A stretch of DNA of 64,000 bases from Promethearchaeota archaeon (GCA_030603385.1 JAUVXW010000007.1:32001-96000), one strand, 5' to 3'; numbered from the stretch's first letter, positions 33,647-37,744 are shown. Notes: generated by a model not told the origin, from the sequence alone. Program-made: numbers and translations.

Positions 33647-33934
33647 TTAAAAAAGGCTTCCTATTCCTGTAGGCTCTTCTTCAACTTCTTCTTCTTCCTT
33701 CTTTGCTTCCTTCTTTGCTTTCTTCTTTTCACTAGCTGGAGCAGCCATTATAGGCATTGAGCTTGCAGATTTAATGATATCCTCTATTTTTGTTCCTTTC
33801 AAGCCAGCAATTAGTTTCGTAATTTCAGTTTTATCAGCTTTCGCGCCAGCAGCAGTTAATACTTTTTCTACATTTGTCTCTGTAATTTTTCCTCCGACTT
33901 TGTGAAGCAATAATGCAGCATAAATACTTTCCAT
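33647..33934 (-). CDS. rpl12: Ribosomal stalk protein P1/L12
   Basis: MESIYAALLLH...GIGSLF. Confidence 0.96.
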   Translation of the reverse strand: MESIYAALLLHKVGGKITETNVEKVLTAAGAKADKTEITKLIAGLKGTKIEDIIKSASSMPIMAAPASEKKKAKKEAKKEEEEVEEEPTGIGSLF

Positions 33935-34007
33935 ATTTTTAAACCTCCTATTTATTATTTTTTATTTTAAATTCATTATTTTAATTGTTTAATAATAATT
34001 ATAAATT

Positions 34008-34907
34008 TCAGCCAAACAAACCTCCAATACCAACTTCTTCAGCATCTTTTTTCTCTTCTTCCTCTTTAGCTTCTTTTTCTTCAACTTTAGTTTCAGGTTC
34101 AGTAGAAACTGGTATTCCCTCTCCAAATATTATCGCATCCAGCGTATTAGCTTCAGATGCAGCTTTCCGAATATATTCTTCAGTCATACTTTCTTCAATA
34201 AAGGGCATTTCAAAGAGAATCGCGAGTGCTTCTCTATACCCCGTAGCGACATCCTGTTTGAATTGGTCTAAATCCATATATAGGACATCTTCTGGTATAA
34301 TTTCTCCATCGCTCCAAGCAAAATAAATTTTAATCAATGACTCTATTGGTGTTATACCAAGTTTTTTCAATACAGCGGCTTGTTTTACATTTACTAAATC
34401 ACCTACTTTATGCGTTCTTGTATCTTCACGAATATGTATCGTGTCATTCATTATTCTTGTAGGGAGTCTTAAAGTCATGTTTAATTCACTAATAACTTGA
34501 CCTGTTGGCAATCCAGTATCTCCAGCAGGTACCCAAATATCTACAGGTGTGATTTCATTTGGTTTTGCAGGAACCATCCATTCATGGTCATGGAAAATCT
34601 CTTTTAATTCTATTAGATCAAGATTCGTAAAAATAAGACTTGATTGACCAGGAATTTGCTCTGCTAATTCATCTAAATTTGACTTTTTTGACTCTTTTTT
34701 GTATTGTTCTATTGCACGAAGTTGTAGAGATTTTTTAGACATACGAAATATCGCTTTCCCCCTTAAAATTTTACGCATTGATTGAATTTGCATATCATTT
34801 ATATGAGAAACTTCTATAACAGCAACATTACTGTAAGTTTTAAATAATTCAATTAAATTATTTACTTCTTCTAATTTCCACTGAGGTATATGTTGTTTTT
34901 TAATCAT
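34008..34907 (-). CDS. rpl10: Ribosomal protein uL10 (P0)
   Basis: IPQWK, PAGDTG, C-terminal GIGGLFG. Confidence 0.96.
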   Translation of the reverse strand: MIKKQHIPQWKLEEVNNLIELFKTYSNVAVIEVSHINDMQIQSMRKILRGKAIFRMSKKSLQLRAIEQYKKESKKSNLDELAEQIPGQSSLIFTNLDLIELKEIFHDHEWMVPAKPNEITPVDIWVPAGDTGLPTGQVISELNMTLRLPTRIMNDTIHIREDTRTHKVGDLVNVKQAAVLKKLGITPIESLIKIYFAWSDGEIIPEDVLYMDLDQFKQDVATGYREALAILFEMPFIEESMTEEYIRKAASEANTLDAIIFGEGIPVSTEPETKVEEKEAKEEEEKKDAEEVGIGGLFG

Positions 34908-34911
34908 TTTT

Positions 34912-35640
34912 TCACACCTCTATACTCTTTAAAAAATCTTCAGTTACATTAACTGGTTTTCCCATTGTAGATTTTAAATACATTGATTTAAAGTTATTGA
35001 ACTTATGTGGCATTTGATCTCCAATAAAATTTACTACTGTTTTCATATTTTCAAATAATTTATCAACTTCCATTGATTTCTTTCCTATTTTTATGAAAAT
35101 TATAGGCTGTTTTTTCATTTGCACACGAATTACCTTTTTATACCTATCAAAGGCAACCTTCAAATCATCCGGACTGGAAATTATTCCATAACCCGTAGGA
35201 AAAGGTTTTGGCATTTTACCTAAAGGCCCAAGAAATCTTGCGAGGTAACGAGCGACATCACGCATCATTTTATCTTCTACAACAAAAAACTCATACTTTT
35301 TTGCAAATTTCTTCTTATACTTCTTTTCTTCGTTATTTAATTTAATCAATCCATCTGAATCAAGAGTATCAACACCAATCTTTTTTGCTTCGAGTAATAT
35401 TTCGTCGGAAGCAATCACACATATATTAGGTTTATCTTTTACAATTACTTCATTTGAGAGGATAATTTCTTTATCAATTCTATTTTTTGGATCATTTAGA
35501 TTTACATCTTTTATATTAATGACAAGGTCAATTGACTCATCGAATTTTCTTATTTTATCTTTAAATCCGTCCTTTTTAATTACTGAAAAATCTATTGCTG
35601 CATTTAAAGATCTTCTTAACAATTTATCATCTACTTTCAA
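34912..35640 (-). CDS. rpl1: Ribosomal protein uL1
   Basis: RKFDESIDL, LGPLGKMP, KSTMGKP. Confidence 0.96.
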   Translation of the reverse strand: MKVDDKLLRRSLNAAIDFSVIKKDGFKDKIRKFDESIDLVINIKDVNLNDPKNRIDKEIILSNEVIVKDKPNICVIASDEILLEAKKIGVDTLDSDGLIKLNNEEKKYKKKFAKKYEFFVVEDKMMRDVARYLARFLGPLGKMPKPFPTGYGIISSPDDLKVAFDRYKKVIRVQMKKQPIIFIKIGKKSMEVDKLFENMKTVVNFIGDQMPHKFNNFKSMYLKSTMGKPVNVTEDFLKSIEV

Positions 35641-35642
35641 TT

Positions 35643-36177
35643 TTATAATTCACCACTGATTTTATCGTCATATTCTCCATTTTCTATTCTTTTTTGAATT
35701 TCTCTGGGATCTTCTCCCTCAACAGTTATTCCAATAGATAACGCAGTTCCTAGGACCGTTTTAACAGCGATCTTAAAATTTTTGTCTAGAAATTTATCTT
35801 TCTTTGCTTCAACAACGTTAATAATCTGCTCAAGTGTGAGATTGCCAATTTTGTCTTCCGAGCTTGCTGGACTTCCTTTTTCTACTCCCGCTTCCTTAAG
35901 TAATAATGAGGCTGTGGAAGGTGTTTCAATAAAAATTTCAAATTGTTTTGTTTCTGTATCACATTCAATTCTGACAGGTACTGTTAAGCCTTTAAATACC
36001 ATTGTTTTTTCATTGATTACGTCAACTACATCTTTGATATTAATACCCGTTGGGCCTACAGCAGGTCCAATAGGTGGCCCTCCTGACGCATTTGAGGTTC
36101 AATCGAAACGATAATTAAAAATAAACACTCCCACCTGTCACAAGGGCTTTAACAATTACTTTTCCTTTTGTACTCAC
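35643..36177 (-). CDS. rpl11: Ribosomal protein uL11, interrupted by a 37-nt insertion (exons 36177-36128 and 36090-35643)
   Basis: Removing 37 nt gives MSTKGKVIVKALVTGGS-ASGGPPIGPAVGPTGINI..., 165 aa. Confidence 0.9.
36091..36127 (-). other. Candidate BHB/BHL pre-mRNA intron
   Basis: Central helix UGGG/CUCA, 3-nt bulge AG^U, inner helix GUUUA/UGAAC, opposite cut AA^U; excision restores the frame. Confidence 0.75.
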
Positions 36178-36384
36178 ATAGTTTCACTTTTTTCCAATTA
36201 ATTTAGTTTAAGAAATATTCTAAAAGCAAAGAACGCGAAATTAAAAATAGGGTATTTAAATTCAATATCTATGTTATATCGAAACCGCATTAATTTGCGT
36301 CCTAAGTCAATTAAAAATATTATCTTAACTTAGTAAATATGAAAATGAACTAAAATTAAAAAGTTTTATTAAAATGAGAATGAT

Positions 36385-36573
36385 CTAAAATCTGCAACAA
36401 AGTCTTCGCCCATAATCAAAATTATGTTTTAAGTATTCTTCAGATAAGAAATTCATAATTGTGTCGTAATCTAATTTTACCTTTTCCACAATATCCTCAA
36501 TTTGAACTCCTGGAGTTGAGATCAATTTCAATATTTCCTTTTTTGTTTCTTCACTAACTTCTATTTCCATCAT
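36385..36573 (-). CDS. Small HTH-like hypothetical protein
   Basis: 62 aa; IEDIVEKVKLDYDTIMNFL. Confidence 0.55.
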   Translation of the reverse strand: MMEIEVSEETKKEILKLISTPGVQIEDIVEKVKLDYDTIMNFLSEEYLKHNFDYGRRLCCRF

Positions 36574-36601
36574 CTATTAAAATTTGTTATAGTTAAAAAA
36601 T

Positions 36602-37744
36602 TTAATTCACAAAGTTAATCATTTTTTCTACAATTTTATAATTTGGTATGATCAGATCAGCAGCACCAGTTTCAGCAGCAACTTTTGGCATTCCATATAA
36701 TACACTCGTTTCTTCAGATTCTGCTATAGTTTTACCTCCTTTAGATTTAATTGCATGAAGCCCATCAACACCATCTCTTCCCATGCCAGTCAACAAGATA
36801 CCAAGTGTTTTTTCTTTATAAACCCTTGCTGTTGAGTAAAAAAGTACATCTACAGATGGTCTACAAAAATTTACAGGTTCACCCTCAAATGTTCTCACGC
36901 AAGGTTTTTCATTTTTAACAGTAACTTGCATATGCTTATCACCTGGAGAAAAGTATATTATCCCAGGTTGAATCTCTTCATAATTTAATCCAATTTTTAC
37001 ATCCATTTTGCAGATATCCCTTAAAGATGTTACAAATTGTCGCATAAATAGATGATTTAAATGTTGAACAACTAAAATAGGTGCGGGAAAATCTTTGGGA
37101 ACTTCGTTAAAGATTGTTCTTAATGTTCTAGGACCGCCAACGCTGGCTCCTATGACAATAACTCTAGTATCTAATTTCTTAATGGTAACTGGTGAGAGGT
37201 CTAGGAAATATTCCTCTGATCTTGATTCGATTTTTGGCTTTATTATCTTATTCGAATCTTCTATTTTTGTTGCTTTTAATTTCTGGCTTTGTGGTATGAA
37301 AATGTCTTTGTTCATTTGTCTCGTTTTACTGTCGATTTTATGTATTTTCGGAATCTCAATCATTAACACTTTAGATATTATCTTATCTCTAATTTTCGGT
37401 AGTTCATTTTTCCAAACGCCATTGGGTTTAACAATATAATCATAAGATTTTAAAATAATAGGAATATTAGTAGAATCCAGCGTTTTCGGGTTTTTATCAG
37501 TCAAGATAATAGTCTCAATTGGAAAGCTTTTCATCACAGGATAAAATTGTTTAACCCACTCCTCATTCTCAAATTCAATATCCAAAATTAGAGCATCTAG
37601 ACTTTTTTTCTCAATTATATCAATTGCTTCATTAGCATTTCTTACAAAATCAACTACTATTATATCTTTATGAGACCCAAGCATTTCAGAAAGAAAAGAC
37701 CTTCGAAATGCTGATTCCGAAGCAATTAATACTTTCTTTACCAT
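36602..37744 (-). CDS. cheB: CheB-type protein-glutamate methylesterase with receiver domain
   Basis: GASVGGP, VQH, RPSVDVLF, LTGMGRDG, YGMP. Confidence 0.93.
   Translation of the reverse strand: MVKKVLIASESAFRRSFLSEMLGSHKDIIVVDFVRNANEAIDIIEKKSLDALILDIEFENEEWVKQFYPVMKSFPIETIILTDKNPKTLDSTNIPIILKSYDYIVKPNGVWKNELPKIRDKIISKVLMIEIPKIHKIDSKTRQMNKDIFIPQSQKLKATKIEDSNKIIKPKIESRSEEYFLDLSPVTIKKLDTRVIVIGASVGGPRTLRTIFNEVPKDFPAPILVVQHLNHLFMRQFVTSLRDICKMDVKIGLNYEEIQPGIIYFSPGDKHMQVTVKNEKPCVRTFEGEPVNFCRPSVDVLFYSTARVYKEKTLGILLTGMGRDGVDGLHAIKSKGGKTIAESEETSVLYGMPKVAAETGAADLIIPNYKIVEKMINFVN

What the first reader, a model, noticed from the sequence alone, without database searches (positions are those of the whole stretch)
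36075..36177. Candidate BHB/BHL intron in the ribosomal protein uL11 mRNA
Seen: the uL11 N-terminus (GTG 36177, MSTKGKVIVKALVTGGS) is out of frame with ASGGPPIGPAVGP. The two are separated by 37 nt with a stop in each exon's frame. The transcript folds as exon-exon stem GCCCUU/GAGGGC plus UGAC/GUCA, an internal loop, 4-bp helix UGGG/CUCA, 3-nt bulge AGU and intron stem GUUUA/UGAAC. Cutting at AG^U and AA^U, the positions a splicing endonuclease would use, removes exactly 36127-36091 and yields GGG AGT GCG TCA and a 165-aa uL11. Known: archaeal EndA/RtcB splice BHB/BHL motifs, and protein-gene examples are rare (crenarchaeal cbf5). Inference: this Asgard archaeon splices the mRNA of the first gene of the L11-L1-L10-L12 operon, possibly as a regulatory switch.
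Basis: partly seen in the sequence, partly recalled or inferred. Interest (0 to 1): 0.93.

Follow-up and report, generated by a model that had tools for sequence, protein, structure and literature searches.

The report
tRNA-type mini-intron splitting Asgard uL11
The only gene for ribosomal protein uL11 in this Asgard (Promethearchaeota) archaeon is broken by a 37-base insert shaped like a tRNA intron; comparison with 118 relatives indicates it is cut out of the mRNA by the tRNA-splicing enzymes, a kind of splicing that the papers I could search report for only one other archaeal protein gene (cbf5).

Summary

- **The gene.** uL11 is single-copy and heads a uL11-uL1-uL10-P1 operon. Removing window 36127-36091 (minus strand) gives an in-frame 165-aa uL11.
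- **An intron-less allele.** A near-identical relative lacks exactly these 37 nt and carries the predicted junction.
- **Four insert sites.** Across 114 near-full-length rpl11 genes of the same family, 53 carry 28-38-nt inserts at codons 17, 24, 28 or 33/34, up to three per gene. After excision, all 118 genes analysed (114 plus four from sister families) are in frame with no stop.
- **Geometry.** The canonical BHB register (4-bp helix H, cuts after nt 2 of each bulge) fits the frame-restoring boundaries in 62 of 72 inserts. It fits 5% of shifted registers.
- **Covariation.** At this site H is 100% paired in 21 genomes and covaries with a synonymous exon base (GGU with A/G, GGA with U).
- **Motif class.** This site never has the outer helix h in register, so it is a relaxed HBh'/BHL motif.
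- **Machinery.** The genome encodes an (alpha-beta)2-type EndA and RtcB.
- **Other genes.** RNase HII and a histone gene in this genome carry similar inserts.

A regulatory-switch role has no support. The scan has noted rpl11 introns before in other genomes.

The parts
36128..36177 (-). rpl11 exon 1 (GTG start; 16 codons plus 2 nt, MSTKGKVIVKALVTGG + AG of Ser17)
   Evidence: The spliced-alignment DP places it on residues 1-17 of intron-less uL11.
36091..36127 (-). 37-nt intron (site A, codon 17, phase 2). The boundaries can slide +1 or +2 nt with the same product.
   Evidence: The intron-less allele lacks exactly these 37 nt.
35643..36090 (-). rpl11 exon 2 (1 nt plus 148 codons plus the TAA stop)
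   Evidence: Pfam Ribosomal_L11_N (profile positions 10-58) and Ribosomal_L11.
36130..36133 (-). Central helix H, 5' strand UGGG (exon 1; third base of Gly15 plus the Gly16 codon)
   Evidence: Paired in 21 of 21 genomes. The first pair is UA:10, AU:8, UG:3.
36093..36096 (-). Central helix H, 3' strand CUCA (3' end of the intron)
36127..36129 (-). 5' splice-site bulge AGU; predicted cut between 36128 and 36127
   Evidence: Canonical register checked on a tRNA intron of this genome. The frame is restored.
36088..36092 (-). 3' splice-site loop AAUGC, facing AGG at 36134-36136. This is a 3x5 internal loop rather than a 3-nt bulge. Predicted cut between 36091 and 36090.
   Evidence: Helix h is 0 bp in register in all 21 site-A genomes.
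36097..36126 (-). Intron hairpin h' (GUUUA/UGAAC closing stem) with apex CGUUUCG at 36104-36110
   Evidence: 3 of 4 h' pairs show double changes. The apex motif C[AG]NNUCG is enriched.
36137..36147 (-). Exon-1 strands of the outer stems (GCCCUU 36142-36147; UGAC 36137-36140)
   Evidence: 96% and 82% paired and mostly invariant. The C-G pair of UGAC/GUCA forms in only 6 of 21.
36077..36087 (-). Exon-2 strands of the outer stems (GUCA 36084-36087; GAGGGC 36077-36082)
33647..35640 (-). Downstream operon genes uL1 (34912-35640), uL10/P0 (34008-34907) and P1/L12 (33647-33934), all uninterrupted

Best explanation
The 37 nt at window 36127-36091 (minus strand) are an archaeal tRNA-type intron of the relaxed HBh'/BHL class inside the coding sequence of rpl11.

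In the pre-mRNA, the last exon-1 bases UGGG pair with the intron's 3' end CUCA to form the 4-bp helix H. An intron hairpin (h') stacks on one side. The 5' splice site lies in a 3-nt bulge (AG^U) and the 3' splice site lies two bases past H in an internal loop (AA^U).

Inferred, not shown: the genome's heterotetrameric (alpha-beta)2 splicing endonuclease EndA cuts both sites, RtcB joins the exons, and the intron probably circularises. Only the spliced mRNA encodes the 165-aa uL11. The unspliced mRNA gives a 20-aa peptide.

The intron is one of four alternative mini-intron sites in this gene across a Promethearchaeia family. It is one of several such introns in protein genes of this genome. It most likely persists as a tolerated, possibly mobile, element rather than as a dedicated regulator.
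For: **This gene**
- rpl11 is single-copy in a 94%-complete genome.
- Excision gives an in-frame 165-aa uL11.
- An ENA contig from a close relative has a near-identical 5' UTR, lacks exactly the 37 nt, and reads GGTGGGAG|TGCGTCAGG.

**Family census**
- 126 rpl11 loci were collected. Inserts of 28-38 nt occur at codons 17 (21 loci), 24 (17), 28 (6) and 33/34 (28).
- 53 of 118 near-full-length genes carry at least one insert, in 5 of 13 genera. The MAGs come from many studies and assemblers.
- After excision, 118 of 118 genes are in frame with no stop.

**Geometry**
- At the frame-restoring boundaries, the canonical register gives a 4/4 helix H in 62 of 72 inserts. Another 8 have 3/4, and 2 were refitted. 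Shifted registers give 4/4 in 5% of cases.
- The same register fits a canonical 37/38 tRNA intron of this genome.

**Covariation**
- Site A: H is 100% paired, with exon GGU opposite A/G (13 genomes) and exon GGA opposite U (8), with no exception. Whole-structure pairing is 91.7%, against 35-61% when the partner is slid. 0 of 500 shuffles reach the covariation score.
- Site C: H is 100% paired, h' has AU/GC swaps, and pairing is 91% against 26-46% when slid.

**Exon codon choice tracks intron presence**
- Codon 16 is GGG in 21 of 21 intron-bearing genes and 15 of 93 intron-less ones.
- Codons 32-33 are GGC AUA in 26 of 26 intron-bearing genes and 12 of 88 intron-less ones.

**Machinery**
- There are two EndA paralogues of about 200 aa. 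One keeps Tyr/His/Lys and best matches catalytic subunits of crenarchaeal heterotetramers. The other has Thr at the catalytic His.
- One RtcB is present.
- PMC5829648 states that Asgard archaea have the (alpha-beta)2 EndA with the L1 loop, and that only (alpha-beta)2 and epsilon2 enzymes cut relaxed motifs.

**Other genes of this genome with the same geometry**
- RNase HII: a 30-nt insert whose excision rebuilds GIDEAGRGP. Its exon 2 matches Pfam RNase_HII positions 9-199.
- A histone-fold gene with a 30-nt insert.
Against:
- The motif is not a strict hBHBh'. The 3' cut lies in a 3x5 internal loop, and no outer helix h is in register in any of the 21 site-A genomes.
- The BHL conformer is 5.2 kcal/mol above the predicted MFE, and the MFE shifts H.
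- The outer exon stems are nearly invariant coding sequence, so they say little. The C-G pair of UGAC/GUCA forms in only 6 of 21 genomes.
- The genomes compared are related, so the counts are not independent events.
- The EndA subunit assignment rests on sequence alone.
Confidence: 0.88

Rival explanations
1. The intron is real and its splicing is used as a regulatory switch for the uL11-uL1-uL10-P1 operon. For example, it could couple ribosome output to splicing capacity.
For: - Splicing is obligatory for uL11 synthesis.
- All four sites lie in the first 34 codons, so unspliced mRNA yields only short peptides.
- A conserved apical loop motif C[AG]NNUCG could be a protein-binding site.
Against: - 61 of 114 family members, and every genome of the sister families searched, lack any rpl11 intron.
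- Sites and intron sequences differ between close relatives. Site A alone has several unrelated sequence classes of 28-38 nt.
- Unrelated genes (RNase HII, histone) carry like introns.
- No regulator or condition-dependence is known.
Confidence: 0.12
2. The insert is removed at the RNA level, but by machinery other than EndA and RtcB, such as an unknown endonuclease or ligase, or self-cleavage.
For: - The 3' site is not in a canonical 3-nt bulge.
- No enzymology is available for Promethearchaeia EndA.
Against: - The canonical EndA register fits 62 of 72 inserts exactly, and the same register fits a tRNA intron of this genome.
- Sites C and D are strict hBHBh' motifs.
- 28-38 nt is too small for group I or II ribozymes, and there is no Rfam match.
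- Relaxed motifs are known substrates of (alpha-beta)2 EndA.
Confidence: 0.04
3. The ribosome skips the 37 nt (gene-60-type bypass) or recodes, with no RNA splicing.
For: - The insert starts soon before an in-frame stop and contains a hairpin, superficially like the T4 gene 60 gap.
Against: - There are no matched take-off and landing codons at any of the four sites. Most site-A genomes allow no boundary slide at all.
- Bypass does not explain a 4-bp helix between the exon end and the intron end in fixed register, nor its covariation.
- Up to three gaps within 100 nt would each need efficient bypass.
Confidence: 0.02
4. The gene is a decaying pseudogene, or the insert is an assembly or sequencing artefact.
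For: - The gene is frame-broken as assembled.
- MAGs can carry errors, and this genome has 7% estimated contamination.
Against: - There is only one rpl11 locus in the genome.
- The exons have no other defect. 118 of 118 relatives are intact after excision.
- Homologous inserts occur in independent MAGs from different studies and assemblers.
- The structure covaries.
- uL11 lies at the head of an intact r-protein operon.
Confidence: 0.02

Closest known systems
BHB intron in the cbf5 (pseudouridine synthase) pre-mRNA of Crenarchaeota (Watanabe et al. 2002; Yokobori et al. 2009, PMC2738675)
   Same: It is a tRNA-type intron inside a protein-coding sequence. It has a BHB-like motif built partly from exon sequence. 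It is removed by the tRNA splicing endonuclease plus ligase. Its presence is patchy among relatives, with gain and loss.
   Different: - The host gene differs (ribosomal protein uL11), and so does the phylum (Promethearchaeota, an Asgard group).
- There are four alternative sites within 18 codons and up to three introns per gene, leaving 21- and 29-nt micro-exons.
- The introns are only 28-38 nt.
- They share an apical loop motif.
- This site is a relaxed HBh'/BHL motif.
- Splicing has not yet been shown experimentally here.
Non-canonical archaeal pre-tRNA introns with relaxed HBh'/hBH/BHL motifs, cut by (alpha-beta)2 or epsilon2 EndA (Marck and Grosjean 2003; PMC5829648)
   Same: Same geometry: a 4-bp helix H, a cut after the second bulge nucleotide, and one bulge degraded to a loop. 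The same enzyme type is present in the genome. Intron lengths are similar.
   Different: The substrate is an mRNA coding region rather than a tRNA body. The exon half of the motif is supplied by Gly and Gly-Pro codons, whose synonymous positions are fixed in intron carriers.
BHB intron in the 5' UTR of Haloferax volcanii HVO_1309 mRNA (PMC7714728)
   Same: An mRNA processed by the archaeal splicing endonuclease.
   Different: That intron lies in an untranslated leader, so it does not interrupt a reading frame. The organism is a euryarchaeon with an alpha'2 EndA.
Heavily interrupted tRNA genes of Asgard archaea (bioRxiv 10.64898/2026.10.13.758758)
   Same: The same lineages and the same splicing machinery, with many independently placed short introns. 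ARAGORN finds only 18 tRNAs in this genome, in line with that report.
   Different: That work covers tRNA genes only. Its text does not mention mRNA or ribosomal-protein introns.

Membership tests
Archaeal BHB-type intron (EndA substrate), strict hBHBh' form | 4-bp central helix H between the exon-1 end and the intron 3' end | tested here: met
   UGGG/CUCA here. Paired in 21 of 21 site-A genomes with UA/AU/UG covariation.
Archaeal BHB-type intron (EndA substrate), strict hBHBh' form | Two 3-nt bulges on opposite strands flanking H | tested here: not met
   The 5' bulge AGU is canonical. The 3' site lies in a 3x5 internal loop (AAUGC facing AGG) in this and all 21 site-A genomes.
Archaeal BHB-type intron (EndA substrate), strict hBHBh' form | Outer helix h (at least 2 bp) directly abutting the 3' bulge | tested here: not met
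   h is 0 bp in register at site A. Displaced exon stems exist (UGA/UCA and GCCCUU/GAGGGC). Sites B and D have h of 5-7 bp, and site C has 1-2 bp.
Relaxed BHB (HBh' / BHL) intron | H plus one intact bulge plus the adjacent helix h', with the second cut two nt past H in a loop | tested here: met
   H is 4/4, the bulge is AGU, and h' is 5 bp with compensatory changes. The AA^U cut lies 2 nt after H.
Relaxed BHB (HBh' / BHL) intron | Cuts after nt 2 of each bulge give a functional joined product | tested here: met
   In-frame 165-aa uL11. The junction is identical to a natural intron-less allele. 118 of 118 genes are intact after excision.
Relaxed BHB (HBh' / BHL) intron | Host encodes a broad-specificity EndA ((alpha-beta)2 or epsilon2) and an RtcB ligase | tested here: met
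   Two EndA paralogues, one catalytic (Y/H/K) and one with His replaced by Thr, plus one RtcB. The link between enzyme type and specificity comes from PMC5829648.
Relaxed BHB (HBh' / BHL) intron | Excision observed in RNA (junction reads, circular or linear free intron) or in vitro | not testable with these tools
cbf5-type mRNA intron (homologous family) | Located in cbf5 at the conserved crenarchaeal position | tested here: not met
   The host gene is rpl11. This one works like the cbf5 intron but is not homologous to it.
Programmed translational bypass (T4 gene 60 type) | Matching take-off and landing codons flanking the gap | tested here: not met
   Boundaries allow no slide in most site-A, B and D genomes, and there are no repeated codons.
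Self-splicing group I / group II intron | Ribozyme core of hundreds of nt | tested here: not met
   The inserts are 28-38 nt, and there is no Rfam match at E <= 1 in 35400-36700.
Pseudogene | Further disabling mutations, relaxed constraint, or an intact second copy | tested here: not met
   Single locus. No other lesion in any of 53 intron-bearing genes. Exon 2 is 73-94% identical to relatives.

The most novel reading that the evidence does not exclude
The rpl11 introns belong to an active, possibly mobile, population of mRNA mini-introns in a Promethearchaeia family. They share the apical loop C[AG]NNUCG. They have been inserted repeatedly wherever exon codons can supply the exon half of a BHB motif, notably the GGNCC strings of Gly-Pro codons and GGG or GGC-AUA. 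In these Asgard archaea, core protein genes (uL11, RNase HII, histones and others) would then routinely require endonuclease splicing, with micro-exons of 21-29 nt. This would be a second, protein-enzyme-based route to split protein genes in the closest prokaryotic relatives of eukaryotes.
Probability: 0.4. Interest if true: 0.92.

Novelty: new variant of a known kind. Interest (0 to 1): 0.85.

Why it matters
In the papers I could search, endonuclease-type (BHB) introns inside archaeal coding sequences are reported for cbf5 only. PMC7714728 says so explicitly.

Here an essential, single-copy ribosomal protein gene needs such splicing in an Asgard lineage. The same 54-nt stretch of the gene carries four alternative intron sites across about half of a 114-genome family.

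- This gives a natural comparative series for asking how BHB introns arrive, and why they persist where exons can form the motif.
- It shows that public annotation truncates these genes. Calls of 142-157 aa are labelled L11.
- It makes the question 'do Asgard archaea splice mRNAs?' directly testable with one RT-PCR or one in vitro EndA assay.

Tried and rejected
- **Loose structure-only scan of rpl11 loci.** With H 4/4 and one flanking helix, it was not discriminating: 516 hits in intron-bearing loci against 606 in intron-less loci.
- **Naive genome-wide BHB plus ORF-fusion scan.** It gave about 19,000 hits, mostly chance open stretches upstream of genes. I dropped it.
- **Scan anchored on the apex motif.** It was noisy, and permuted control motifs gave as many or more ORF-fusing hits. 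I used it only to pick out individually verifiable cases (RNase HII, histone). It gives no estimate of intron number.
- **Common origin of introns at different sites.** The best cross-site identity (0.73) is no higher than with shuffled partners (0.71-0.75). Only the short apex motif is shared.
- **Gains versus losses.** Parsimony on the uL11 gene tree gives 15 changes for 21 carriers at site A, 13 for 17 at B, 3 for 6 at D and 22 for 26 at C. The 495-nt gene tree is too weak to separate repeated gain from loss.
- **Rfam.** No match around the locus.
- **A 60-nt 'intron' at codon 9 in L126.** I treated it as an alignment artefact of a divergent N-terminus.
- **The short ENA contig with the intron-less allele.** Whether it is DNA or cDNA could not be determined.

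Full report
**1. Observation**

On the minus strand, GTG 36177 opens a frame reading MSTKGKVIVKALVTGGS. It then runs into TAA at 36117-36115.

The rest of uL11 (148 aa from ASGGPPIGPAVGP) lies in another frame from 36089. That frame is closed just upstream by TGA at 36101-36099. Pfam places this piece on Ribosomal_L11_N from profile position 10 to 58, plus Ribosomal_L11. So only the first nine or so positions are missing, and exon 1 supplies them.

Removing 36127-36091 (37 nt) joins GGG AG|U GCG UCA and gives 495 nt, or 165 codons.

The downstream genes are uL1, uL10/P0 and P1.

**2. It is not an artefact or a dead gene**

The genome is 94% complete in 58 contigs and has one rpl11 locus.

The nearest full-length (165-aa) uL11 in the large protein collection is 94% identical over exon 2. 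It lies on a 560-nt ENA contig. Aligned to the window, that contig has a near-identical 5' UTR and exon 1. It lacks exactly the 37 nt and reads GGTGGGAG|TGCGTCAGGAGGGCC. So an intron-less allele with precisely the predicted junction exists in a close relative.

**3. Family census**

I collected rpl11 loci from 126 genomes: the window's family (135 genomes, 13 genera) plus sister families. Record titles name them Promethearchaeota or Promethearchaeia (Loki-type Asgard) MAGs from many studies and assemblers.

I aligned an intron-less uL11 to each locus with a spliced protein-to-DNA dynamic programme of my own. Short inserts occur at four positions:

| Site | Codon | Loci | Insert length |
|---|---|---|---|
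| A (this one) | 17 | 21 | 28-38 nt |
| B | 24 | 17 | 30-36 nt |
| D | 28 | 6 | 28-30 nt |
| C | 33/34 | 28 | 28-31 nt |

- Of 118 near-full-length genes, 53 carry at least one insert.
- Observed combinations include AB, AC, AD, BC and ABC. ABC occurs in three genomes and leaves micro-exons of 21 and 29 nt.
- Carriers fall in 5 of the family's 13 genera. None was found in the four near-full-length sister-family genes analysed, and the other sister-family hits showed uninterrupted frames.
- After excision, all 118 genes have a length divisible by three and no internal stop.

**4. Geometry**

For a canonical archaeal intron, H is formed by the four bases ending two before the 5' cut and the four bases ending two before the 3' cut. 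Each cut falls after the second base of a 3-nt bulge.

I checked this register on a canonical tRNA intron of this genome. There h is 7 bp, H is UUCG/CGAG, and the cut falls after nt 37.

Applied to the frame-restoring boundaries of the 72 rpl11 inserts:
- H is 4/4 in 62.
- H is 3/4 in 8. All are site B, with a U-U.
- The two exceptions become 4/4 with an equally in-frame alternative boundary.
- Registers shifted by up to 9 nt give 4/4 in only 5% of cases.

By site:
- **Sites C and D** are strict hBHBh' motifs. An example from site C is H GCAU/AUGC, bulges AAA and AUA, and h' of 7-8 bp.
- **Sites B and D** use exon-exon outer helices GGNCC/GGNCC of 5-7 bp. These are made by the Gly-Pro codons of GPPIGPAVGP. 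This offers a reason why this stretch is an intron hot spot.
- **Site A** has H, a canonical 5' bulge and h', but never an outer helix in register. Its 3' cut lies in a 3x5 internal loop.

**5. Covariation**

At site A the first H pair involves the synonymous third base of Gly15. The 13 genomes with GGU have A or G opposite. The 8 with GGA have U. There are no exceptions.

The pair-count tool gives the following for site A:
- H is 100% paired (UA:10, AU:8, UG:3).
- Three of four h' pairs show double changes.
- 91.7% of cells are paired, against 35-61% when partners are slid by 1-3 columns.
- 0 of 500 shuffles reach the covariation score.

For site C, H is 100% paired, h' shows AU/GC swaps, and 91% of cells are paired against 26-46% when slid.

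The outer exon stems at site A are almost invariant coding sequence and carry little information. The C-G pair of UGAC/GUCA forms in only 6 of 21 genomes.

Exon codon choice follows intron presence:

| Site | Exon codons | Intron-bearing genes | Intron-less genes |
|---|---|---|---|
| A | codon 16 = GGG | 21 of 21 | 15 of 93 |
| C | codons 32-33 = GGC AUA | 26 of 26 | 12 of 88 |
| B | CCG CCU AUA-type strings | 17 of 17 | 9 of 97 |

The genomes are related, so these are not independent counts. The pattern nevertheless holds at four separate sites.

**6. Machinery**

The genome has two EndA paralogues of about 200 aa, and one RtcB.
- One paralogue best matches the catalytic subunits of the Aeropyrum and Pyrobaculum heterotetramers, and keeps Tyr/His/Lys.
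- The other best matches M. jannaschii EndA but has Thr where the catalytic His aligns.
- The two are 33% identical to each other.

This predicts an (alpha-beta)2 enzyme. PMC5829648 reports that Asgard archaea have this type with the L1 loop, and that only (alpha-beta)2 and epsilon2 enzymes cut relaxed motifs. Which subunit does what here is inferred from sequence only.

**7. Context in the genome**

- ARAGORN finds only 18 tRNAs. This fits the reported heavy interruption of Asgard tRNA genes (bioRxiv 10.64898/2026.10.13.758758).
- A histone-fold gene has a 30-nt insert with two in-frame TAA codons, H UGAA/UUCA in the same register, and a sensible junction.
- An RNase HII gene has a 30-nt insert (H UGGU/ACCA, bulges AGA and AAA). 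Its excision rebuilds the hallmark GIDEAGRGP, and its exon 2 matches Pfam RNase_HII positions 9-199 of 199.
- Hairpin apices at all four rpl11 sites, and in these two genes, share C[AG]NNUCG. The motif is in 43 of 68 distinct rpl11 introns, against about 1.3% expected per 30 nt of this genome.
- Overall intron similarity between sites is not above shuffled controls.

**8. How it most likely works**

- *Shown:* a frame-breaking insert whose removal at fixed positions restores uL11. A conserved, covarying helix H in the EndA register. The matching enzymes in the genome.
- *Inferred:* EndA cuts at AG^U and AA^U and RtcB joins the exons. Unspliced mRNA yields only a 20-aa peptide.
- *Not supported:* a dedicated regulatory role. 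Most relatives do without the intron, and unrelated genes carry similar ones.

**9. What speaks against**

- There are no RNA data.
- The 3' site is non-canonical.
- The BHL conformer is 5.2 kcal/mol above the MFE in the nearest-neighbour model. This may be usual for protein-bound bulged motifs, but I did not check that.

**10. Novelty**

In the searchable literature, coding-sequence BHB introns are reported for crenarchaeal cbf5 only, plus one 5'-UTR case in Haloferax. No paper combines L11 with BHB introns.

Earlier notes of this scan describe rpl11 introns in other genomes and mini-introns in other genes of this genome. My census was made independently and agrees with them.

**Verdict**

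This is a genuine tRNA-type (relaxed BHB) intron in the uL11 mRNA, with confidence 0.88. Mechanistically it is the known kind. Its host gene, lineage, multiplicity and population-level polymorphism are new.

Noticed in passing
G000:C17:18136-18165 (L215:237-266), + strand: The RNase HII gene is interrupted by a 30-nt insert with strict BHB geometry (H UGGU/ACCA, bulges AGA and AAA, apex CAUUUCG). Excision rebuilds GIDEAGRGPVLGP. Exon 2 matches Pfam RNase_HII positions 9-199 of 199.
   Followed up: partly
G000:C36 about 121,000-121,200, + strand (L214): A histone-fold gene has a 30-nt insert holding two in-frame TAA codons. H is UGAA/UUCA in the canonical register and the apex is CAACUCG. The spliced junction reads ...RRLMKHNGALIV...
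   Followed up: partly
G000:C36, minus strand (reverse-complement index about 83,541-83,570): A 29-nt insert with H GUGU/ACAC follows MSVPNTMRV, and excision opens a frame of about 305 codons. The protein was not identified.
   Followed up: no
whole genome G000: ARAGORN finds only 18 tRNA genes in a 94%-complete genome, 7 of them with introns. Most tRNA genes are probably interrupted in ways the program misses.
   Followed up: no
window about 36261-36306, minus strand (upstream of rpl11): A two-hairpin element (UUAGGACGCAAAUUAAUGCGGUUUCGAUAUA...AGAUAUUGAA) is conserved upstream of rpl11 in the family loci printed. Its GGACGC...GCGG core also occurs in sister families. There is no Rfam match. 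It could be a leader, terminator or regulatory site.
   Followed up: no
all four rpl11 intron sites (alignments A1, A2; /scratch tables): The hairpin apex motif C[AG]NNUCG (a pentaloop closed by C-G) is in 43 of 68 distinct introns, against about 1.3% expected. Its function is unknown. It may mark a common origin or a recognition or stability element.
   Followed up: partly
public protein records (P0014, P0029, P0076, P0097, P0103 and others): Many deposited '50S ribosomal protein L11' calls of these MAGs are 142-157 aa rather than 165. They are apparently N-terminally truncated because annotation pipelines do not model the introns.
   Followed up: no
window 36602-37744, minus strand: A CheB methylesterase with a weak receiver-domain match sits upstream of the rpl11 operon, where archaea usually have secE-nusG. 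A 62-aa ORF with no Pfam match lies between them (36385-36573).
   Followed up: no
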